A stretch of DNA of 60,006 nucleotides from Verrucomicrobiia bacterium (lineage in GTDB: Bacteria > Verrucomicrobiota > Verrucomicrobiia > Palsa-1439), in the NCBI GenBank assembly GCA_049511095.1, contig JBEKYJ010000003.1, positions 1-60,006 on the forward strand, written 5' to 3'. The notes under the pieces are model-generated. The model saw nothing but the letters and a program-made list of their open reading frames with translations, was not told the DNA's origin and searched no databases. This document shows, in pieces, positions 487 through 9,343 of this stretch (positions are counted from its first letter, which is position 1; each line of letters opens with the position of its first letter). A program made the translations under genes and the position numbers.

Positions 487-1053
487 TCATGTGGGATGCG
501 CGCGCATCCCCTCCACCCAAATGTCCGCCAACATCTCGCTGACTTTGCAGATCCCGGACTTCTGATGCCGGGCCGCGCAGAATAGCTTCTGCTCGAGGAG
601 ATAAGAAAAAACCATCCCTAGGAAACTCTGTGCCGCCACCGTCGCATCCACGGGCCGGAATACCTGGGCCCGGATCCGCTTTCGGATGTACTCCGCCAGC
701 AAATCGCAAAAACTGGTCACATAAGCCTGCACCAACCGCGCCGTCAATTCATGTTCCTCCAGCGTCCCGAATAAGAGCAAGCGCATCAGTGTGGTGTCCG
801 CCATGTTCTGTTCGAGGAGCGCCGCTGCCACCTCGGTGAATATCGTCTTCTCGTCCTCTGCCAGCGCCAGTTGCGCAGCCAGTAGTTTCCGGGCGGGCGT
901 CTCCCGGCATTTCTCGTCGATCACGGGCCAGTACAAGCTTGCCTTGTGCGGGAAGTGACGGAACAGGATCGCCTCGTTGATTCCTGCCCGCTCGGCGATC
1001 TGCCGCGTCGTTGTCTTGTGAAACCCTTGGTGAGCGAACAACTCCGCAGCCAC
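487..1053 (-). CDS. TetR/AcrR-family transcriptional regulator; the conserved N-terminus continues upstream to ATG 1104 but is cut by an in-frame TAA at 1063-1065
   Basis: HTH signature AAELFAHQGFHKTTTRQIAERAGINEAILFRHFPHK. The same frame upstream reads MNKRRIPAVQRHQ-TAA-ILAVAAELF, which is the usual TetR helix 1. The ORF as called starts at GTG 1053. Confidence 0.8.
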   Translation of the reverse strand: MAAELFAHQGFHKTTTRQIAERAGINEAILFRHFPHKASLYWPVIDEKCRETPARKLLAAQLALAEDEKTIFTEVAAALLEQNMADTTLMRLLLFGTLEEHELTARLVQAYVTSFCDLLAEYIRKRIRAQVFRPVDATVAAQSFLGMVFSYLLEQKLFCAARHQKSGICKVSEMLADIWVEGMRAHPT

Positions 1054-1369: not shown

Positions 1370-4300
1370 TCAGCGTCCGCCCTGTTTGGGGACCGGTTGT
1401 TTCTCGATTTCCCAGCCGCCGCCCAACGCCTTATAGACCGCCACGAGCGCGGTGGCGGTGCGGGTTTCGCTCTGCGCCAGTTGGTCTTGGATTTCCAACA
1501 GCGTCCGCTGTGCGTCCAGCACGGTGAGGAAATCCTCAACGCCGCTGTTGTACCGCTGCACGGCCAGTTTCTCGGCGCGTTCGGCGGCGGCGGCAGAGGC
1601 TCTTAAATAATCGCGCCGCTTTTGGGCGCGGCCAAACTCCACCAAGGCGCCTTCGGTTTCTTCCAAGGCCAGTAGAACGGTTCTTTCGTAGTTGGCCAGT
1701 TCGGCCTCCGTCCGGGCGTCGGCCGCTTTGATGCGAGCGCGGACGCGGCCCAGGTCGAGCGCGGCCCAAGTAATGCGCGGTCCAAACGAGTAAGTGTCGG
1801 CACCGCCGCCGGAGAGGGCGGAGAAACTCTCTGCTGACACTCCGAGGTTACCGATGAACGTGACGCGGGGGAACAGGTCGGCGGTGGCGACGCCGATGCG
1901 GGCCGTGGCGGCCGCCAAGGCGCGTTCGGCTGCGCGGATGTCCGGGCGGCGGCGCAGGAGTTGTTCCGGACTGCCCACGCTGACCAGCGCGGGTAGCGCA
2001 GGCTGCGGCACAGGGGCGGACAATTTGGAGTCCAGGGCGGTGGGTTGCTGGCCGGTCAGAACGCTGAGCCGATAGGCGGTTTGTTTCATGCCAGCCTCCA
2101 GCGGGGGGATGGTGGCGAGGGTGGCGTTCAGTTGTGTCTCGGCGCGGGCCACGTCAAGGTCGGTGGCACGGCCGGCGTTGAGTTTGGCGCGCGTGATGTC
2201 GAGGGTTTCGCGCTGGTTCTCGGCGTTCTGGCGGGCGACGTCCAACTGGTGTTGGGCGCCGCGCAGTTCAAAGTAATTGCGCGCGACTTCCGAAGTGAGC
2301 GTGACGAGCACATCCCGCCGCGAAGCCTCCAGCGCGGCGACATCGGCGGTGCTGGCCTGGATGGAACGGCGGACGCGACCGAAGATGTCCACTTCCCAAA
2401 TGGCGTCGAAGCCAGCGTCGTACAGCGCGTTCTTGCGCTGATCGCGGGTGAGCGGCGTCGGATTGGAGTCGAAGCTGGACAGTGATCGGGTGTAGCCGCT
2501 GTCGACCGTGACGGTGGGCGCCAAGTCCAAGACCACTGTGGTGCGGAGCGCGCGGGCTTCGCGGACGCGGGCGGTGGCGATGCGCAGATCATGGTTGGCG
2601 GCGACGGCTTGCTCGGTGAGCCGGTTGAGGGTGTCATCGGTGAATCCCCGCCACCACTCAATCACGACGGGGTCGGTAGTGAGGTTGGTCGGGCTGCTGT
2701 TGGCGAACGCGGCATCAACCTTGGTTTGTGGTTGCCGGTAGTTCGGTCCGGCGGCACACCCACTGAGGAACATCACTGAGGTCAAGCCCAGCAGCAGCAC
2801 GACGGTGGTGACGGCCGACGCCGCGGACCCGGGCGAGGCTTGGGCCCCGGCTCTTTTCTGCTTGCGTTCGAGAACCTGGCGGATGACCAAATAGAAGACC
2901 GGCGTCAGGAGCAGGCCGAAGAAGGTCACGCCCAACATGCCCCAGAACACGGCGGTGCCGATGGCCACGCGCATTTCCGCGCCCGCGCCCCTGGCCACCA
3001 TCAGGGGCAGCACGCCAAACGCGAACGCAAACGAGGTCATAAGAATCGGGCGCAACCGCAACCGGCTGGCCTCAATGACGGCTTCCAGTCGGTTTTGGCC
3101 GGCGTCCTGCAACTGCCGCGCGAATTCGACGATCAGAATGGCGTTCTTGCACGCCAGACCGATCAGCACCACCAAGCCGATTTGCGTGAAGAGGTTGTTG
3201 TCCAAGCCGCGCGCCCACACCCCGAGGACGGCGAAGAGCAGGCTCAAGGGGACGACGAGGATGATGGCCAGCGGCAGTGACCAGCTTTCGTATTGAGCCG
3301 CCAGCACCAGAAACACCATCAATACGCACAGCGGCAGGATGAAAATCGCCGTGTTGCCCGCCTGGATTTGCAGCAGGGTCAATTCGGTCCATTCAATGGC
3401 CATGCCCGGGGGGAGGACTTTTCCGGCTAGGTCATTGATGAGCTCGATCGCCTCGCCCGAACTGGCGCCCGGCGCGAGGCTGCCAGTGATTTCTGCTGTG
3501 GGATACATATTGAAATGCCCGACCAGCACCGGTGCCCTGATGTCGCGCATTGTCGCCAGCGTGCCCAACGGGACCATCTCCCCGTTGACATTGCGGGTCT
3601 TGAGATTTGGCACATCCTCGGGTTTGGCCCGGAACGGCGCGTCCGCCTGCAACGTGACGTGGTACGGGCGGCCGAGGTAGGTGAAGTCGTTGACGTAGAG
3701 CGAGCCGAGATAAATCTGCAACGTGTCCCAGACATTGTTCAACGGCACGCCCATGGATTCGGCCTTCGCGCGATCCACATCCAGATACACCTGCGGCACA
3801 TGAGCGCGAAAGGTCGTGAGCGCGCCGCTGATACGCCGGTCCTGCATGGCGGCAGCGGCGAGTTTGGTGGTGGCCTCCTGTAGCGCGGCAAAACCGAGGT
3901 TGGCGCGGTCTTCCACTTGCAGTTTGAACCCGCCCAGGGTGCCCAACCCGTCCACGGGTGGGGCGCCAAAGACGCCGACAAACGCATCCTGAATGTTGGC
4001 TTGCGCGATCCTGGCGCGCAACTGGCGCATGATGACGTCGGCGGTCAGGCCCTCCTTGCTCCGTTCCTCGAAGGGGGCCAAGCGGACGAACAGGGTGCTG
4101 GCATTGGCGCTGTTACCGAGATTCACGAGCGACAGTCCCTGGAATTCCTGGACCGCACCGATGCCGGGAGTCTCACGCACCAACTTGGCCACGCGCTGGC
4201 TGACCGCCGCCGTGCGTTGCAGGGAGGCGCCGTCGGGAAGCTGCATGTAACAAAAGATGTTGCCCTTGTCCTGCGACGGAATGAAGCCACCGGGCACCTG

Positions 4301-6067
4301 GCGGAAACCCAGCCAGGTCAGGCCAATAAACCCCACGTAGAACAATAAGCTGATGCCGCAATGGCGGAGCACGATGTGGCGCAGCGCCGCGACGTAGCCT
4401 CGCCGGCCGGATTCAAACACGTAGTTGAAACCTTGGAACAACCAGCCGACCGAATAGTGAATCAGTCGACCGATGAAATCCTTCTCCTCATGGTGCGGTT
4501 TCAACAGCAACGCCGCCAGCGCCGGGCTGAGCGTCAGCGAGTTGAACGCCGAGATCAGCGTGGAGACGGCCACCGTCAACGCGAACTGCTGATAGAACTT
4601 GCCCGTGATGCCGGCGATGAACGCGGTAGGAATGAACACCGCGCTCAAGACCAGGGCAATGGCGACGACGGCCCCGCTGACCTCGTTCATGGCCGTCTTG
4701 GCCGCCTCCACCGGGGCGAGGCCCTCCGCGAGATGGCGCTCCACGTTCTCCACGACGACGATGGCGTCGTCCACCACGATGCCAATGGCCAGCACCAGTC
4801 CGAACAGTGTCAGGTTGTTGAGCGAGAAGCCCATCGCGGCCATCGCCGCGAACGTGCCGACCAGCGAGACCGGCACCGCCAACAGCGGGATGAGCGACGC
4901 TCGCCAATTCTGGAGGAACAGCACGACAACGAGGACGACGAGAATCATCGCTTCGATGAGCGTTTTGATGACCTCGCGGATGGACTCGCGGATGAACGCC
5001 GAGGTGTCAAAGGCGACGCGGTAGTCCAGCCCTTCGGGGAATTGTTTCTTGAGCTCCTCCATCGCGTGGCGGATGGCGTCGGCCGTCTCGATCGCATTGG
5101 AGCCGGGTTGTTGGAAGATGGCGATAGCGCCGGCCGGCCGGTCGTCCAGTAGGGTGTTGATGCTGTAATCGGCGCCGCCCAGTTCGATGCGGGCCACGTC
5201 CTGCAAGCGGGTGAGTTGGCCAGCGGCGTCGGCCTTCAGGATGATCTCACCGAATTCCTCGGGTGTGATCAGACGTCCATGGGTCTGGGCGGTCAGTTGA
5301 AACAGGTTGTCGGGCGGTTGGGGGGCTTGCCCCAACACGCCGGCGGCAACCTCGACGTTCTGCCGGCGGATCGCCTCCGCAATGTCACCAGCTGTCAGGC
5401 CGCGCGCCGAGGCTTTGTTCGGATCCACCCAGATCCGCATGCTGTAGTCGCGCGCGCCAAAGATGATCGTGTCACCGACGCCGGGCAGCCGGGACAGCAC
5501 GTCGCGTACGTGCAGGTAGGCGTAATTGCTCAAATACAGGCGATCGTACTTGCCGGTGGGCGAGGTCAGGCTGACGATCATGGCGATGGATGGTGAGCGT
5601 TTGCGGACGGTCACGCCCAGCCGGCGAACCTCCTCCGGCAACTTCGGCTCGGCCACGCCCACGCGGTTTTGGACCAGCACCTGCGCCATGTTCGGATCGG
5701 TGCCCACCTTGAAAGTCACGGCCAGACGCAGTTGGCCGTCGCTGCTGCACTGGGCGGACATGTAGAGCATGTTTTCGACGCCGTTGATTTCCTGCTCCAG
5801 CGGCGTGGCCACGGTGTCCGCCACGCTCTTGGCGCTGGCGCCGGGATAGTTGGCCAACACAAAAATGGTCGGCGGCGTGATTTCGGGATACTGGGCAATG
5901 GGCAGCTTGAACAAGGCGATCAGACCCAACAACACGAAGAAAATCGACAGCACCATCGCGAAGATGGGCCGGTGGATGAAGAAATGGGAAAATCTCACAG
6001 GCGCTCCAGGTTGAGGTTTGCCGGATGCATCATTGCCTCGTGGACGACTGGCTGGCCGGCGGGGCAC
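1370..6067 (-). CDS. RND efflux permease (AcrB/MexB-like) fused in frame to an OprM/NodT-like outer-membrane factor lipoprotein
   Basis: N-terminus FFIHRPIFAMVLSIFFVLLGLIALFKLPIAQYPEI and an AcrB-like body run to about aa 1065. Next come KQKR, a hydrophobic stretch and a lipobox FLSGC (Cys codon 2756-2758). A 462-aa OMF follows, ending ALGGGWE, with no stop in between. ATG 6067 overlaps the adaptor gene by 38 nt. GTG 5998 (VRFSHFFIHRP) is a plausible alternative start. Confidence 0.85.
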   Translation of the reverse strand: MPRRPASRPRGNDASGKPQPGAPVRFSHFFIHRPIFAMVLSIFFVLLGLIALFKLPIAQYPEITPPTIFVLANYPGASAKSVADTVATPLEQEINGVENMLYMSAQCSSDGQLRLAVTFKVGTDPNMAQVLVQNRVGVAEPKLPEEVRRLGVTVRKRSPSIAMIVSLTSPTGKYDRLYLSNYAYLHVRDVLSRLPGVGDTIIFGARDYSMRIWVDPNKASARGLTAGDIAEAIRRQNVEVAAGVLGQAPQPPDNLFQLTAQTHGRLITPEEFGEIILKADAAGQLTRLQDVARIELGGADYSINTLLDDRPAGAIAIFQQPGSNAIETADAIRHAMEELKKQFPEGLDYRVAFDTSAFIRESIREVIKTLIEAMILVVLVVVLFLQNWRASLIPLLAVPVSLVGTFAAMAAMGFSLNNLTLFGLVLAIGIVVDDAIVVVENVERHLAEGLAPVEAAKTAMNEVSGAVVAIALVLSAVFIPTAFIAGITGKFYQQFALTVAVSTLISAFNSLTLSPALAALLLKPHHEEKDFIGRLIHYSVGWLFQGFNYVFESGRRGYVAALRHIVLRHCGISLLFYVGFIGLTWLGFRQVPGGFIPSQDKGNIFCYMQLPDGASLQRTAAVSQRVAKLVRETPGIGAVQEFQGLSLVNLGNSANASTLFVRLAPFEERSKEGLTADVIMRQLRARIAQANIQDAFVGVFGAPPVDGLGTLGGFKLQVEDRANLGFAALQEATTKLAAAAMQDRRISGALTTFRAHVPQVYLDVDRAKAESMGVPLNNVWDTLQIYLGSLYVNDFTYLGRPYHVTLQADAPFRAKPEDVPNLKTRNVNGEMVPLGTLATMRDIRAPVLVGHFNMYPTAEITGSLAPGASSGEAIELINDLAGKVLPPGMAIEWTELTLLQIQAGNTAIFILPLCVLMVFLVLAAQYESWSLPLAIILVVPLSLLFAVLGVWARGLDNNLFTQIGLVVLIGLACKNAILIVEFARQLQDAGQNRLEAVIEASRLRLRPILMTSFAFAFGVLPLMVARGAGAEMRVAIGTAVFWGMLGVTFFGLLLTPVFYLVIRQVLERKQKRAGAQASPGSAASAVTTVVLLLGLTSVMFLSGCAAGPNYRQPQTKVDAAFANSSPTNLTTDPVVIEWWRGFTDDTLNRLTEQAVAANHDLRIATARVREARALRTTVVLDLAPTVTVDSGYTRSLSSFDSNPTPLTRDQRKNALYDAGFDAIWEVDIFGRVRRSIQASTADVAALEASRRDVLVTLTSEVARNYFELRGAQHQLDVARQNAENQRETLDITRAKLNAGRATDLDVARAETQLNATLATIPPLEAGMKQTAYRLSVLTGQQPTALDSKLSAPVPQPALPALVSVGSPEQLLRRRPDIRAAERALAAATARIGVATADLFPRVTFIGNLGVSAESFSALSGGGADTYSFGPRITWAALDLGRVRARIKAADARTEAELANYERTVLLALEETEGALVEFGRAQKRRDYLRASAAAAERAEKLAVQRYNSGVEDFLTVLDAQRTLLEIQDQLAQSETRTATALVAVYKALGGGWEIEKQPVPKQGGR

Positions 6068-7154
6068 CCGTTGCCGAGCCTTCCTGCGCTTCCACCTTTG
6101 CGCCCGCGCGCACCGCCATCAGGCCGTTGACAACCACCCGGTCCTGCGGCGTCAACCCTTTCAACACCGCACGTAGCGGGCCATGGGATTGGCCGGTTTC
6201 GATGACGCGGGTTTCGACGACGTTGGTCGGGTTGACGACATAGACGAACTTGTAGTTCTGGTCGAAGCCCACGGCCACGTCGGGAATCAGCAACGCCTGC
6301 TCGGGCGGGCCGGCCGGGATGCGGATCTTGGCGAACATGCCGGGCACCAAAGCGCGGTCGGCGTTCTCGAGGACACACCGCACGCGGATCGTGCCGGTCC
6401 TGGCATCCACCTGATTGTCGAAGAAATCCACGCGGCCTTTGTGCGGGAAACCTTCCTCGCCCACCAAGGCCAACTCGCAGGCCAGCGGACTGTTCGTTTG
6501 TCCCGCACTACTCGGGTCGCTGGTATTGATGCGGTATCTCAAAAAAGCCTCTTCGGCGACATCGAAGTAGCCGTAAATGGGGTCCATTGTGACGATCGTT
6601 GTCAGCGTGCTGGCCGCGCCAGCCCCGCCCACGACCAGATTGCCCGCCGTCACCAAGCGGCGCCCAATCTTGCCGTTGATCGCGGCCGTGATGCGGGTGT
6701 ACTCCAGGTTGAGCCGCGCGGCGTCCAAGGCCGCTTTCGCCTCGCGGGCGGCCTTGCTGCGACTGTCATATTCCTCCTCGGAAATCGCCTTGGTGCCGCG
6801 CAACGCCTCGGCGCGCTGGAGGTCGTTCTCGGCCAGTTCAAACCTTGCTTGGTCGCGATCCAGTTCGGCCTGGTACGGTCGCGGGTCAATCACAAACAGC
6901 AGATCGCCCGCCTTCACTTCTGCCCCGTCGGTGAAGTGGATAGAGTCGATGTAGCCGGAAACGCGCGGCCGGATTTCCACCATCTCCACCGCCTCCAGGT
7001 GGCCGGGATACTCGTCCCAGTTGGTCACCGTCATGACCTGCGGGCGGGCGATAGTGACATTGGGCGGACGCGGCACCGGCGGCTTGGGCCGGGAACAGGA
7101 CTGCAGCGCGACCGACGCAACGAGTATCAACAGACATCGGATGGAGGTATTCAT
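6030..7154 (-). CDS. RND efflux periplasmic adaptor (membrane fusion protein), lipoprotein
   Basis: Signal peptide with lipobox LQSCS. HlyD/AcrA-like hairpin and beta-barrel motifs (AGDLLFVIDPRPYQAELD, LEYTRITAAINGKIG). Directly upstream of the RND gene. Confidence 0.9.
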   Translation of the reverse strand: MNTSIRCLLILVASVALQSCSRPKPPVPRPPNVTIARPQVMTVTNWDEYPGHLEAVEMVEIRPRVSGYIDSIHFTDGAEVKAGDLLFVIDPRPYQAELDRDQARFELAENDLQRAEALRGTKAISEEEYDSRSKAAREAKAALDAARLNLEYTRITAAINGKIGRRLVTAGNLVVGGAGAASTLTTIVTMDPIYGYFDVAEEAFLRYRINTSDPSSAGQTNSPLACELALVGEEGFPHKGRVDFFDNQVDARTGTIRVRCVLENADRALVPGMFAKIRIPAGPPEQALLIPDVAVGFDQNYKFVYVVNPTNVVETRVIETGQSHGPLRAVLKGLTPQDRVVVNGLMAVRAGAKVEAQEGSATGAPPASQSSTRQ

Positions 7155-7687: not shown

Positions 7688-8287
7688 TCATCGGCGCCGC
7701 ACCGTCCCATCTGCCATACGCAGCAAGTGTTCGACGATCGACTTCCTCTGGCGTGCGCTGAAACAGGACAGGCCGAGCAGTTCCTGCATGTACAATCCGT
7801 CCGCTGCCAGTAACAAGAGCACCGCCAGATTAAAATCCAGTCCCGATTCCACAAGCGCCTGATGTACCTGACAAATGTGTGCCCGCACCGGCTCCAATAA
7901 CTGCGGCTGATTCGCCGCGACGGCCAACACTGCGCTGCTGACCCGGCGCGACCGTTCGTCAGCGTGCAGCTTGGCCAGCAATCGCGCCTTCAGTTTGCTG
8001 GCGGGTGAATTCGGAAGCTCATGCGCCGCCTGTTCGTAGCGTTCCTTCCAAGCGGCCAGCAACTGCACCACCATCGCCTGCAACAGTGCGTCCTTGGTTG
8101 GAAAGTTATGGATCAGCCCGCCTTTGCTGACCCCAGCTTTGCGGGCCACGGCATCCAATGTCAGATGCGCCGCTCCCACCTCCATCACCACCTGCTCGGC
8201 AGCGTGGAGCAGCTTCGCCCGTGAATTCGTATAGGTCCTCATCCGTACCGACTGGTCGGTGTAGTTCAAACTATGGACTCTCGTCAA
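7688..8287 (-). CDS. TetR/AcrR-family transcriptional regulator
   Basis: RAKLLHAAEQVVMEVGAAHLTLDAVARKAGVSKGGLIHNFPTKDALL is the TetR HTH. The start may be the internal ATG at 8242 (MRTYTNS). Confidence 0.85.
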   Translation of the reverse strand: MTRVHSLNYTDQSVRMRTYTNSRAKLLHAAEQVVMEVGAAHLTLDAVARKAGVSKGGLIHNFPTKDALLQAMVVQLLAAWKERYEQAAHELPNSPASKLKARLLAKLHADERSRRVSSAVLAVAANQPQLLEPVRAHICQVHQALVESGLDFNLAVLLLLAADGLYMQELLGLSCFSARQRKSIVEHLLRMADGTVRRR

Positions 8288-8396: not shown

Positions 8397-8543
8397 TTAC
8401 TTTTCCCAGCCGCCGCCGAGCACTGCGTAAAGCCTCACGTGGCTCGTGAGCTTTGCCAGGCGCAGGGAGACGAGTCCCTGCTGCCCTGCGTAGAGGGACC
8501 GTTGTGCATCAAGGACGCTCAGGTAGCTGTCGATCCCGTGAGG
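8397..8543 (-). pseudogene. 3-prime relic (about 48 codons) of an outer-membrane factor (OprM/TolC-family) gene
   Basis: Minus-strand translation reads [48 protein letters not shown]-stop. This matches the conserved OMF C-terminus; compare FLTVLDAQRTLL...LVAVYKALGGGWE at the end of the 1370-6067 ORF. It is preceded by an in-frame TGA and has no upstream OMF body. Confidence 0.65.
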
Positions 8544-9343
8544 TCAACATACTCATCTGACGTCGGTGCTCGAGATTCGACCAGCCACACCAAAACGACT
8601 GGCACGAAACGCCGTTTCGGTTCGGCAATGTCGTCAGGGGCATCGAGGCCGGTGTGACGAGACACGAACCGCCGTAACCGCGATATAACTGACGGATCAC
8701 ACAGCCGCACCTTAAACTTCGGCAGGCGGCCTGGCGGTGGTAGAAGTTCAGCAGCCCACCCCAACCACTCCGCCTTCTCGATCCTCCCCTCCCGCGCCTC
8801 CAGCCGTCGGTCGGGAAACGGAATCACATTCTTAATCCCCTGATGGTTACGTTCGGCGTGATAGTGCGCCAAGTACTCGCGGATCACGTGGCGCAGGGAT
8901 TCCTCGCCGAACAGGACGAACTGCTCCAAGCATTCTGTTTTGATGGTCTTCACGAATCGTTCCGCAAACGCGTTCAGATTCGGGGATTGCGGTGGCAGCC
9001 GTATAACCGCTGTGCCGGCGGCCTTCAGAATCTGGTCGAAGGACTGGGTGTACTTCGCATCGCGGTCATGGATCAAATAACGGGCTCCCACCAGCGGCCC
9101 ATCCGAGCTGGTTACATTCCGCGCGGTCTGCTTCATCCACCCCTCGTTCGGATTCTGACTCATTTCCCCCAGCACGATCCGACGACTTCGCACGTGGATA
9201 AAGAACAGCACATAGTAGGTCGCCAGTCCCCAGCGTGTCCCAATCTCGGTGGTGAAGAAATCCGTCGCCCACAGCACGTCCCGGTGCTGGCGAATGAAAC
9301 TCGCCCACGTGGTGTTCCTCCGTCGCTCGACCAACCTGAACAA
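8519..9343 (-). mobile_element. N-terminally truncated DDE (rve/integrase-core) transposase remnant
   Basis: Integrase-core motifs are present: WATDFFT, IHDRDAKYT, NAFAERFVKTIKTECL, YLAHYHAERNHQGI. The N-terminal HTH region is absent. The tail after about 8740 looks like read-through into flanking DNA. No terminal inverted repeats found by eye. Confidence 0.8.

What the first reader, a model, noticed from the sequence alone, without database searches (positions are those of the whole stretch)
1370..6067. RND permease and its outer-membrane factor encoded as one 1565-aa ORF with an internal lipoprotein signal
The AcrB-like permease runs without a stop into a complete OprM/NodT-like OMF.

The junction reads ...VFYLVIRQVLERKQKRAGAQASPGSAASAVTTVVLLLGLTSVMFLSGC-AAGPNYRQP. 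That is a positively charged patch, a hydrophobic helix and a lipobox (Cys codon 2756-2758). In effect a lipoprotein signal peptide is embedded after TM12.

The topology fits. The RND C-terminus is cytoplasmic, so the extra helix would export the OMF part. Signal peptidase II could then release a lipidated OMF.

Two-thirds of the tripartite pump would thus be made in obligate 1:1 stoichiometry. I am not aware of this as a described arrangement.

Alternatively, it is a lost stop codon or a homopolymer sequencing error.
Basis: partly seen in the sequence, partly recalled or inferred. Interest (0 to 1): 0.62.

Follow-up and report, generated by a model that had tools for sequence, protein, structure and literature searches.

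The report
Efflux pump fused to its outer channel
In this peat Verrucomicrobium and hundreds of relatives, one gene encodes both the inner-membrane drug-efflux pump and its outer-membrane exit channel, joined by a conserved internal lipoprotein export signal that most likely lets the cell cut the chain in two; I found no paper describing this way of making an outer-membrane protein.

Summary
A single minus-strand ORF (1370..6067; likely start GTG 5998, 1542 aa) encodes a complete MexF/OqxB-type RND permease, then a ~20-residue variable linker, a hydrophobic stretch, a lipobox (LSGC, Cys codon 2756-2758) and a complete OprN-like outer-membrane factor (OMF).

It is not an error. Contigs from four separate peat metagenome runs match the junction with no differences. 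More than 400 protein clusters and 19 species-level genomes, including cultured Limisphaera, carry the same in-frame fusion.

Both halves are under purifying selection. The linker drifts almost neutrally, but the hydrophobic stretch and the Cys are kept. The Cys aligns with Cys1 of mature OprN. No conserved internal start codon exists.

Trees show at least three independent fusions, including in unrelated RND lineages and a MacB-type transporter, and all retain a lipobox at the junction. Split Verrucomicrobial relatives have overlapping stop and start codons, so one indel would fuse them.

The best reading is a precursor cut by Lgt/LspA into an RND carrying a leftover 13th helix and a lipidated OMF. 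Cleavage is inferred, not shown. Eight literature searches found no description. This is a new variant of a known kind.

The parts
7688..8287 (-). TetR-family regulator upstream of the pump genes, same strand
   Evidence: Pfam TetR_N and TetR_C_28
6030..7154 (-). Periplasmic adaptor (MFP), MexE/OqxA-like, itself a lipoprotein (signal MNTSIRCLLILVASVALQS-C)
   Evidence: NCBIfam RND_mfp TIGR01730 at 265 bits, closest named model MexE; N-terminal lipobox LQSC; an adaptor lipoprotein gene lies directly upstream in the fused loci examined
1370..5998 (-). Fused RND-OMF gene, 1542 codons plus stop, from the likely GTG start. The maximal ORF extends to 6067.
   Evidence: P0002 is 100 % identical and 1542 aa
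2879..5998 (-). RND permease core, residues 1-1040 (HAE1, MexF/OqxB-like), with the proton-relay residues intact
   Evidence: NF000282 at 1383 bits; best PDB matches 7wlv, 8yr0, 8zxs and 7cz9 at about 1160-1200 bits; D410, D411, K951, R981, R983 and T988 invariant in 52 sequences; AF2 mean pLDDT 82, pTM 0.76; dN/dS 0.06-0.15
2813..2878 (-). RND cytoplasmic basic tail (ERKQKR) plus a variable Gly/Ala/Ser/Pro-rich linker, residues 1041-1062. This would serve as the n-region of the internal signal.
   Evidence: aa identity 0.33-0.75 and dN/dS 0.2-2.4 between relatives; alignment A2; pLDDT below 50
2756..2812 (-). Hydrophobic stretch VTTVVLLLGLTSVMF plus lipobox L-S-G-C (Cys codon 2756-2758), residues 1063-1081. 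This is the putative 13th transmembrane helix and signal peptidase II site.
   Evidence: Lipobox-type motif in 118 of 120 homologues; the other two are one N-terminally truncated protein and one with LAGC-APVGPNY. Mean hydropathy of positions -18 to -3 is 1.4-2.8. Cys invariant in A2.
1373..2758 (-). Mature OprN-like NodT-family OMF, 462 residues, starting at the lipobox Cys; stop codon at 1370-1372
   Evidence: TIGR01845 at 358.7 bits; phmmer against OprN 5iuy, E 7e-102, query 1-450 to chain 1-444; Foldseek best hit OprN with TM 0.72, and all 44 hits with E <= 0.001 are OMFs; dN/dS 0.05-0.43
487..1053 (-). Second TetR-family regulator downstream, same strand
   Evidence: Pfam TetR_N and TetR_C_7

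Best explanation
This is a genuine, anciently fixed gene fusion of a mexF/oqxB-type RND permease with its cognate oprN-type OMF lipoprotein, sitting in an otherwise ordinary adaptor-RND-OMF efflux operon flanked by TetR regulators. The whole prolipoprotein signal of the OMF has been kept at the junction. Proposed mechanism, with status for each step. (1) One 1542-residue precursor is translated; this is shown, because there is no stop and no conserved internal start. (2) The 12 RND helices insert, leaving the C-terminal basic tail in the cytoplasm; this follows from known RND topology. (3) The hydrophobic stretch inserts as a 13th in-to-out helix and exports the OMF part through Sec/YidC; inferred. 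(4) Lgt adds diacylglycerol to Cys1081 and LspA cuts between Gly1080 and Cys1081; inferred from the conserved lipobox. (5) The lipidated OMF, which has Ala at +2 and never Asp, goes through Lol and Bam to the outer membrane and trimerises. The RND keeps the former signal peptide as a loosely attached, dispensable C-terminal helix; inferred. The result is the usual tripartite pump, with RND and OMF made in a fixed 1:1 ratio that matches the 3:3 ratio in assembled pumps. The fusion most likely arose by a one-base indel in an ancestor whose RND stop and OMF start overlapped, as they do in split Verrucomicrobial relatives.
For: Real and conserved: four independent assemblies are identical over the junction. 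419 long homologues matched the OMF-region search; those listed are mostly ~1530-1550 aa and carry both domains. 19 species-level genomes carry the in-frame fusion, including cultured Limisphaera. Both halves functional: dN/dS is about 0.1 for the RND and 0.05-0.43 for the OMF, and the proton-relay residues are invariant. Signal under selection: the linker evolves nearly neutrally, yet the hydrophobic stretch and Cys are retained, with a lipobox in 118 of 120 and Ala at +2 in 105 of 118. The Cys aligns with Cys1 of mature OprN and with the lipobox Cys of stand-alone relatives. Independent origins all keep the lipobox: the OMF tree needs at least 3 changes; P0201, P0213 and P0180 have distant RND halves; about 96 of 97 further fused proteins from Acidobacteriota, Kiritimatiellota, Desulfobacter latus and others, plus a MacB-type fusion, show a lipobox at the junction. 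No internal start: no conserved ATG/GTG/TTG with a Shine-Dalgarno-like sequence and a basic n-region in 15 loci. No adaptation for tethering: the Cys-to-WW tail has a median of 34 residues in fused proteins against 35 in stand-alone OMFs. The 13th helix is dispensable and not part of the RND fold: AF2 pLDDT is 29-38 for residues 1051-1087, and L022 and L028, nested inside the fused clade, end right after the basic tail. Route to fusion: L025 has an ATGA overlap and L024 a 14-nt overlap. The adaptor in the same operon is a lipoprotein, so the organism must have the lipoprotein pathway.
Against: No protein-level evidence exists. Cleavage, lipidation and localisation are all inferred. Metatranscriptome contigs did not cover the junction. 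In the fused clade the -2 lipobox residue is often Asn (54 of 120), which never occurs in 119 stand-alone relatives and falls outside the strict textbook lipobox pattern. The window's own lipobox, LSGC, is canonical. The basic patch is separated from the hydrophobic stretch by about 13 uncharged residues, which is longer than in typical signal peptides. The only precedent I know for LspA acting on an internal signal is an engineered one (Hayashi et al. 1985, pmid 2985611), which I saw only as a title in reference lists.
Confidence: 0.75

Rival explanations
1. The chain is not cut. RND and OMF stay covalently linked through the 13th helix, giving a single polypeptide that contributes to both membranes, possibly lipid-modified at the internal Cys.
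For: The frame is continuous and no cleavage has been shown. ABC importers with C-terminally fused substrate-binding domains use an uncleaved extra helix in this way (my knowledge of OpuA/GlnPQ-type systems, not tested here). Asn at -2 in many clade members is atypical for LspA substrates.
Against: The Cys is invariant and always sits in a lipobox across at least 3 independent fusion lineages; a plain anchor helix would not need it. The Cys-to-WW tail is no longer than in free OMFs (34 against 35 residues). About 35 extended residues span at most ~120 A. From published AcrAB-TolC and MexAB-OprM cryo-EM dimensions, which I recall and did not measure here, the OMF equatorial domain lies roughly 160 A or more above the inner membrane. 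In OprN and OprM, Cys1 is the outer-membrane lipid anchor (4y1k, palmitoylated OprM, appears among the hits).
Confidence: 0.08
2. The OMF is made separately by internal translation initiation within the linker, and the full-length fusion is a minor or irrelevant product.
For: In-frame GTG, TTG and ATG codons do occur in the linker and hydrophobic stretch of the window and its relatives.
Against: Their positions are not conserved. Only one has a Shine-Dalgarno-like sequence upstream, and it lies 4 codons before the Cys. Those within about 30 codons of the Cys would give peptides with at most one Lys/Arg near the start, and the window's own have none. Those further upstream lie inside the last RND helix. 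Only 15 of 118 homologues have a Met in the linker. If an internal start were used, nothing would select against restoring a stop codon, yet the frame stays open in hundreds of lineages.
Confidence: 0.05
3. The precursor is cut, but by something other than Lgt/LspA, for example signal peptidase I or another envelope protease, or the cutting is conditional and used for regulation.
For: Earlier scan notes mention a Verrucomicrobial variant whose junction lacks a Cys (note e1-3553354, not checked here). The atypical -2 residues are also consistent with this.
Against: In this clade the Cys is invariant, is preceded by Gly or Ala at -1, and aligns with the acylated Cys1 of OprN and OprM. Stand-alone relatives of this OMF are all lipoproteins.
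Confidence: 0.07
4. Sequencing or assembly artefact, or a recent pseudogene-like loss of the stop codon, specific to this genome.
For: Two relatives (L014, a long-read MAG, and L021) carry frameshifts just upstream of the junction, so errors or decay do occur in this gene.
Against: The sequence is identical in four independent assemblies. The fusion is conserved at 59-86 % identity with purifying selection on both halves. Even the frameshifted copies have the RND C-terminus in frame with the OMF.
Confidence: 0.01

Closest known systems
MexEF-OprN of Pseudomonas aeruginosa and OqxAB-type HAE1 RND pumps
   Same: The gene order is adaptor, RND, OMF. The adaptor's best named model is MexE/OqxA and the RND's is OqxB/RND_permease_1. 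The OMF is 40 % identical to OprN and aligns from Cys1 onward. The adaptor and OMF are lipoproteins, and a TetR-type regulator lies nearby.
   Different: There, RND and OMF are separate genes and the OMF signal peptide is N-terminal. Here they form one ORF, the signal is about 1060 residues into the chain, and after cutting it would remain attached to the RND.
Split Verrucomicrobial orthologous operons (loci L024 and L025)
   Same: Same phylum and same gene order. The OMF prolipoprotein signal follows directly after the RND tail.
   Different: The RND stop and OMF start overlap (ATGA, or by 14 nt) in different frames. A one-base indel would convert that arrangement into the one seen here.
Engineered internalised prolipoprotein signals (Hayashi et al. 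1985, J Biol Chem 260:5753, pmid 2985611; title seen in reference lists only)
   Same: A lipoprotein signal sequence placed inside a polypeptide rather than at its N-terminus, studied for modification and processing.
   Different: That work used short artificial N-terminal extensions on Lpp. Here a natural 12-helix membrane protein precedes the signal.
ABC importers with the substrate-binding domain fused to the permease (OpuA/GlnPQ type; from my own knowledge)
   Same: An extra transmembrane segment after a polytopic transporter exports a C-terminal extracytoplasmic domain.
   Different: Those anchors have no lipobox and are not cut, and the domain works at the inner membrane. Here the exported part must reach the outer membrane.
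Other natural fusions within export machineries, such as SecDF of Thermus (PMC8277102)
   Same: Two normally separate membrane components are encoded as one chain.
   Different: Both SecD and SecF are inner-membrane parts and stay joined. No fusion of an inner-membrane transporter to an OMF is mentioned in the 300,000 characters of that review that are held.

Membership tests
HAE1 RND permease (AcrB/MexF/OqxB) | Full-length match to the family profile above the curated cut-off | tested here: met
   NF000282 at 1383 bits against a cut-off of 1250, model 1-1028 of 1029; TIGR00915 at 1163 against 940; Pfam ACR_tran 1-1021 of 1021
HAE1 RND permease (AcrB/MexF/OqxB) | Proton-relay residues (AcrB D407, D408, K940, R971, T978) | tested here: met
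   VVDDAIVV, GLACKNAIL and RLRPILMTS are present. D410, D411, K951, R981, R983 and T988 are invariant in 52 sequences. The mapping to AcrB numbering is from my own knowledge.
HAE1 RND permease (AcrB/MexF/OqxB) | 12 transmembrane helices with two large periplasmic loops | tested here: met
   AF2 model with mean pLDDT 82 and pTM 0.76; the order of helices and strands is as in RND pumps. The extra 13th hydrophobic segment is outside the confident fold.
HAE1 RND permease (AcrB/MexF/OqxB) | Homotrimer that exports drugs or amphiphiles using the proton-motive force | not testable with these tools
   Needs biochemistry
NodT-family OMF lipoprotein (OprN/OprM) | Full-length match to the family profile above the cut-off, with two OEP repeats | tested here: met
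   TIGR01845 at 358.7 bits against 210, model 3-460 of 460; Pfam OEP in 2 stretches
NodT-family OMF lipoprotein (OprN/OprM) | OMF fold | tested here: met
   Foldseek: all 44 hits with E <= 0.001 are OMFs, best OprN 5iuy with TM 0.72. The model is only moderate (mean pLDDT 67; helices 85-92, strand regions low).
NodT-family OMF lipoprotein (OprN/OprM) | Lipobox Cys as residue 1 of the mature protein | tested here: met
   Query Cys aligns with Cys1 of the OprN chain and with the lipobox Cys of stand-alone relatives
NodT-family OMF lipoprotein (OprN/OprM) | Signal peptide at the N-terminus of a separate gene product | tested here: not met
   The signal lies about 1060 residues inside the ORF, with no conserved start
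NodT-family OMF lipoprotein (OprN/OprM) | N-acyl-diacylglyceryl modification and outer-membrane location | not testable with these tools
   Needs mass spectrometry and cell fractionation
Canonical tripartite RND efflux operon | Adaptor gene adjacent to and co-oriented with the RND gene | tested here: met
   Adaptor at 6030..7154, 31 nt upstream of the RND start; conserved in the fused loci examined
Canonical tripartite RND efflux operon | RND and OMF as separate polypeptides at synthesis | tested here: not met
   Single ORF, confirmed by independent assemblies
Lgt/LspA substrates (bacterial prolipoproteins) | Basic n-region, uncharged hydrophobic h-region, and lipobox [LVI]-x-[GAS]-C | tested here: met
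   ERKQKR ... VTTVVLLLGLTSVMF-LSGC; conserved in 118 of 120. The n-to-h spacer of about 13 residues is longer than usual.
Lgt/LspA substrates (bacterial prolipoproteins) | Actual cleavage by signal peptidase II | not testable with these tools
   No predictor or experiment was available; inferred from conservation

The most novel reading that the evidence does not exclude
The fusion is more than a tolerated gene arrangement; it is an assembly device. Three precursors brought together by RND trimerisation would release three OMF protomers at one site, seeding the OMF trimer next to its own pump. The retained 13th helix would stay on the RND as an accessory element, loosely comparable to the small protein AcrZ on AcrB. 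A more extreme form is that a fraction of the chains stays uncut and physically tethers the two membranes. Either way, an outer-membrane beta-barrel lipoprotein would be delivered from the C-terminus of a polytopic inner-membrane protein, a biogenesis route not described for bacteria in the papers I could search.
Probability: 0.12. Interest if true: 0.85.

Novelty: new variant of a known kind. Interest (0 to 1): 0.6.

Why it matters
Tripartite efflux pumps are a main cause of intrinsic drug tolerance in Gram-negative bacteria. How the outer channel is matched and delivered to its inner pump is still debated. A natural RND-OMF precursor that recurs independently in several phyla shows that evolution repeatedly hard-wires 1:1 synthesis of the two trimeric partners.

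It also implies that Lgt and LspA can process a lipoprotein signal buried behind a 12-helix membrane protein, leaving that signal attached as a 13th helix. That extends what counts as a lipoprotein precursor. Genome annotation and signal-peptide predictors look only at N-termini, and NCBI names these proteins simply 'RND permease', so the OMF in such genomes is overlooked.

The idea can be tested directly in cultured Limisphaera, in Kiritimatiellota isolates, or by expression in E. coli K-12.

Tried and rejected
- **Transcript evidence.** Metatranscriptome runs hold only 5-7 % of the sampled words. When laid on the window, they give short pieces over conserved RND motifs (about 4517-4560 and 4728-4790) and nothing over the junction. 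No conclusion on expression is possible.
- **Whole-genome search.** A search for lgt, lspA, lnt, lol and bam genes and for stand-alone OMFs was not possible, because the genome search and the fetch from genomes were shut (notice).
- **Is the 13th helix part of the pump?** AF2 gives pLDDT 29-38 for the linker and hydrophobic stretch. This argues against an integral role but is weak evidence, because only 15 of the 52 aligned rows contain that segment.
- **Internal start codon.** Examined in 15 loci and rejected.
- **Sequencing error.** Rejected.
- **Promoter and terminator scan.** Uninformative: 0 promoter-like sites, and terminator-like sites close to the shuffle expectation.
- **Literature.** Eight full-text searches and three papers read (PMC4827864, PMC8277102, PMC3707914) found no description of a natural RND-OMF fusion. 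Subscription-only papers and TCDB entries could not be searched.
- **Hayashi 1985.** I could not read how later papers describe this work (searches failed), so only its title is cited.
Full report
**Observation.** The window has one minus-strand ORF, 1370..6067, of 1565 codons. The database copy of this protein (P0002) is 100 % identical but 1542 aa long. It starts at GTG 5998, 31 nt after the stop of the upstream gene. I use this 1542-residue numbering below, in which the Cys is residue 1081.

**Domains.**
- Pfam finds a full-length ACR_tran domain and two OEP stretches.
- NCBIfam gives RND_permease_1 at 1383 bits (cut-off 1250). It also gives outer_NodT TIGR01845 at 358.7 bits (cut-off 210), covering model positions 3-460 of 460, which includes the signal region.
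- The upstream gene (6030..7154) is a MexE/OqxA-like adaptor with its own lipobox, LQSC.
- TetR-family regulators lie on both sides, at 7688..8287 and 487..1053.

**Not an artefact.** Contigs assembled independently from four peat metagenome runs, from different samples and studies, cover 2400-3300 with no mismatch and no gap. One of these runs may be the window's own source.
- A search with only the OMF region, restricted to proteins of at least about 860 aa, returned 419 hits. Those listed are mostly ~1530-1550 aa, carry both Pfam domains, are 59-86 % identical, and are mostly labelled Verrucomicrobiota.
- A scan of species-representative genomes found 19 in-frame fused genes. They include cultured Limisphaera sp. 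VF-2 and 4302-co and a MAG labelled Methylacidiphilum.
- Two further copies (L014, L021) are fused but have a frameshift upstream of the junction.

**What is conserved at the junction.**
- In 118 of 120 homologues the RND end (P-V-F-Y...) is followed 38-52 residues later by a lipobox-type motif and then (x)GP. The other two are an N-terminally truncated protein and one reading LAGC-APVGPNY.
- The +2 residue is Ala in 105 of 118 and is never Asp.
- Nei-Gojobori estimates between close relatives give dN/dS of 0.06-0.15 for the RND core and 0.05-0.43 for the OMF. The 22-codon tail and linker give 0.2-2.4, which is nearly neutral. Values for the hydrophobic stretch plus lipobox scatter from 0 to about 0.8, while its hydrophobic character is kept (alignment).
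- So selection keeps a hydrophobic helix and a Cys while letting the spacer drift.

**The two halves.**
- *RND half.* It is closest to the OqxB/MexF group of solved structures (7wlv, 8yr0, 8zxs, 7cz9; about 1160-1200 bits) and keeps the proton-relay residues.
- *OMF half.* It aligns from its Cys to Cys1 of the mature OprN chain 5iuy (E 7e-102). An AF2 model of the C-terminal 543 residues hits only OMFs in the PDB, with OprN best at TM 0.72.
- *Relatives of the OMF.* In the all-against-all representative search, most close relatives of the OMF half are stand-alone lipoproteins of about 480 aa. Their lipobox Cys aligns with query residue 1, and the closest is 58 % identical.

**Origins.**
- *OMF tree.* A maximum-likelihood tree of 167 OMF domains places the query in a clade that is fused in 23 of 23 members (SH-aLRT 100). 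Three other fused proteins (P0201, P0213, P0180) are nested among stand-alone OMFs. Parsimony needs 5 changes, and at least 3 are forced by well-supported branches.
- *Distant RND partners.* The RND halves of those three proteins belong to distant RND lineages. They score 190-440 bits on RND_permease_2, against 1383 bits on RND_permease_1 for the query.
- *Other phyla.* A second homologue search seeded with P0213 returned 203 long proteins with an OMF domain, nearly all RND-OMF fusions. Named sources include Acidobacteriota, Kiritimatiellota bacterium B12222, Pontiellaceae bacterium B12219, Desulfobacter latus, a Polyangiaceae MAG, an FCB-group MAG and Pseudomonadota. It also returned a MacB-type permease-OMF fusion (P0340) and an ABC-OMF fusion (P0278). 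About 96 of these 97 proteins show a lipobox Cys followed by (x)VGP[DN]Y at the junction. Retention of the lipobox in every independent fusion is the strongest argument that it is used.
- *RND tree.* In a tree of 52 RND sequences the fused clade has 100 % support but contains two unfused genes, L022 and L028. They end just after the basic tail (...VLEGKLPAETRR*) and have no OMF within 6 kb downstream. The OMF half and the 13th helix can therefore be lost while the RND is kept.
- *Route to fusion.* Truly split Verrucomicrobial relatives show how the fusion could arise. In L025 the RND stop and OMF start form ATGA, and in L024 the two ORFs overlap by 14 nt. A single indel would fuse the frames and keep the entire OMF signal peptide.

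**Tests of rival explanations.**
- *Internal initiation.* In the window and 14 fused loci, in-frame ATG, GTG and TTG codons near the junction are not positionally conserved. Only one has a Shine-Dalgarno-like sequence, and it lies 4 codons before the Cys. Those within about 30 codons of the Cys would give peptides with at most one Lys/Arg near the start, and the window's own have none. Only 15 of 118 homologues have a Met in the linker.
- *Uncut tether.* The tail from the Cys to the conserved WW motif has a median of 34 residues in the query clade, 32 in other fused lineages and 35 in stand-alone OMFs. It has not been lengthened. About 35 extended residues reach roughly 120 A at most. Published cryo-EM dimensions of AcrAB-TolC and MexAB-OprM, which I recall and did not measure here, put the OMF equatorial domain roughly 160 A or more above the inner membrane.
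- *Structural 13th helix.* An AF2 model of RND plus linker plus hydrophobic stretch is confident for the core (mean pLDDT 82, pTM 0.76). It gives pLDDT 29-38 for residues 1051-1087, with only a short helix at 1063-1073.

**Mechanism proposed.** One precursor is made (shown). The RND inserts with its C-terminus in the cytoplasm (established topology). The hydrophobic stretch inserts as an in-to-out helix and the OMF part is exported. Lgt and LspA act at Cys1081. The lipidated OMF travels by Lol and Bam to the outer membrane. The RND keeps the former signal peptide as a dispensable extra helix. All steps after insertion are inferred. RND and OMF would be made 1:1, which matches their 3:3 ratio in assembled pumps.

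**Weak points.**
- No protein data exist, and RNA data were uninformative.
- The genome could not be searched for the lipoprotein-pathway genes.
- The -2 lipobox residue is Asn in 54 of 120 members of the fused clade but in 0 of 119 stand-alone relatives. Other fused lineages favour Gly at that position. This may reflect adaptation or relaxed constraint, and I cannot explain it.

**Literature.** Eight full-text searches and three papers read found no natural RND-OMF fusion. The papers included a review of fusions among outer-membrane proteins (PMC4827864) and the 2021 Chemical Reviews survey of tripartite pumps (PMC8277102, first 300,000 characters).
- Databases already hold these proteins. 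NCBI names them 'multidrug efflux RND transporter permease subunit', while JGI sometimes gives both names.
- An engineered precedent for internal prolipoprotein signals exists (Hayashi et al. 1985, pmid 2985611); I saw only its title in reference lists.
- Earlier notes of this scan report the same architecture in at least 22 other genomes. I treated these as leads and re-derived the multi-phylum recurrence independently.

**Verdict.** This is a new variant of a known kind: a tripartite RND pump made from an RND-OMF precursor with an internal lipoprotein signal. Confidence that the fusion is real and functional is about 0.97. Confidence that it is cut at the lipobox by the lipoprotein pathway is about 0.75.

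Noticed in passing
window 8403-8540 (-) and 8519-9343 (-): An orphan fragment of about 45 residues from the C-terminus of a second OMF gene (...[41 protein letters not shown]) lies directly after an rve-type transposase/integrase ORF. It looks like a stand-alone OMF gene truncated by an IS insertion, just upstream of the pump operon.
   Followed up: partly
window 1373-5998 compared with L001-L003: The two halves have different histories. The window's RND half is 94-95 % identical to L002 and L003 (dS 0.26-0.31), but its OMF half is only 73 % identical (dS 0.85-0.91). L002 and L003 differ from each other by dS 0.14 in the OMF half. This suggests recombination near the junction, or exchange of OMF halves.
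   Followed up: partly
junction of fused homologues (P0002-P0121; P0273-P0366): The lipobox -2 residue is Asn in 54 of 120 members of the fused clade, is mostly Gly in other fused lineages, and is Asn in 0 of 119 stand-alone relatives, where Ala dominates. Adaptor lipoproteins in the same loci do not use Asn. Unexplained.
   Followed up: partly
L022:3082-6231 and L028:3082-6231: Two Verrucomicrobial RND genes nested inside the fused clade end just after the basic tail and have no OMF within 6 kb downstream. This is a secondary loss of the OMF half and the 13th helix.
   Followed up: yes
P0340 (952 aa) and P0278 (1111 aa): OMFs are also fused behind other inner-membrane transporters. P0340 has MacB-type domains (FtsX and MacB_PCD) plus OEP, with a signal-like segment ...TNTVRRALTWSAAVAVSASLAGC-MVGPNY at the junction. 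P0278 has an ABC ATPase plus OEP.
   Followed up: partly
L014 (about 6188-6320) and L021 (about 1556-1760): Two fused orthologues carry a frameshift shortly before the junction. The RND C-terminus is in frame with the OMF but out of frame with the rest of the RND. L014 comes from a long-read MAG, so a homopolymer error is likely.
   Followed up: partly
L002, L005, L014 (record titles): MAGs labelled Candidatus Binatia, Chloroflexia and delta proteobacterium carry copies closely related to those of Verrucomicrobia (RND half 93 % identical for L002, 71 % for L005; RND C-terminal part 95 % for L014). These are probably mislabelled or contaminated bins rather than horizontal transfer.
   Followed up: no
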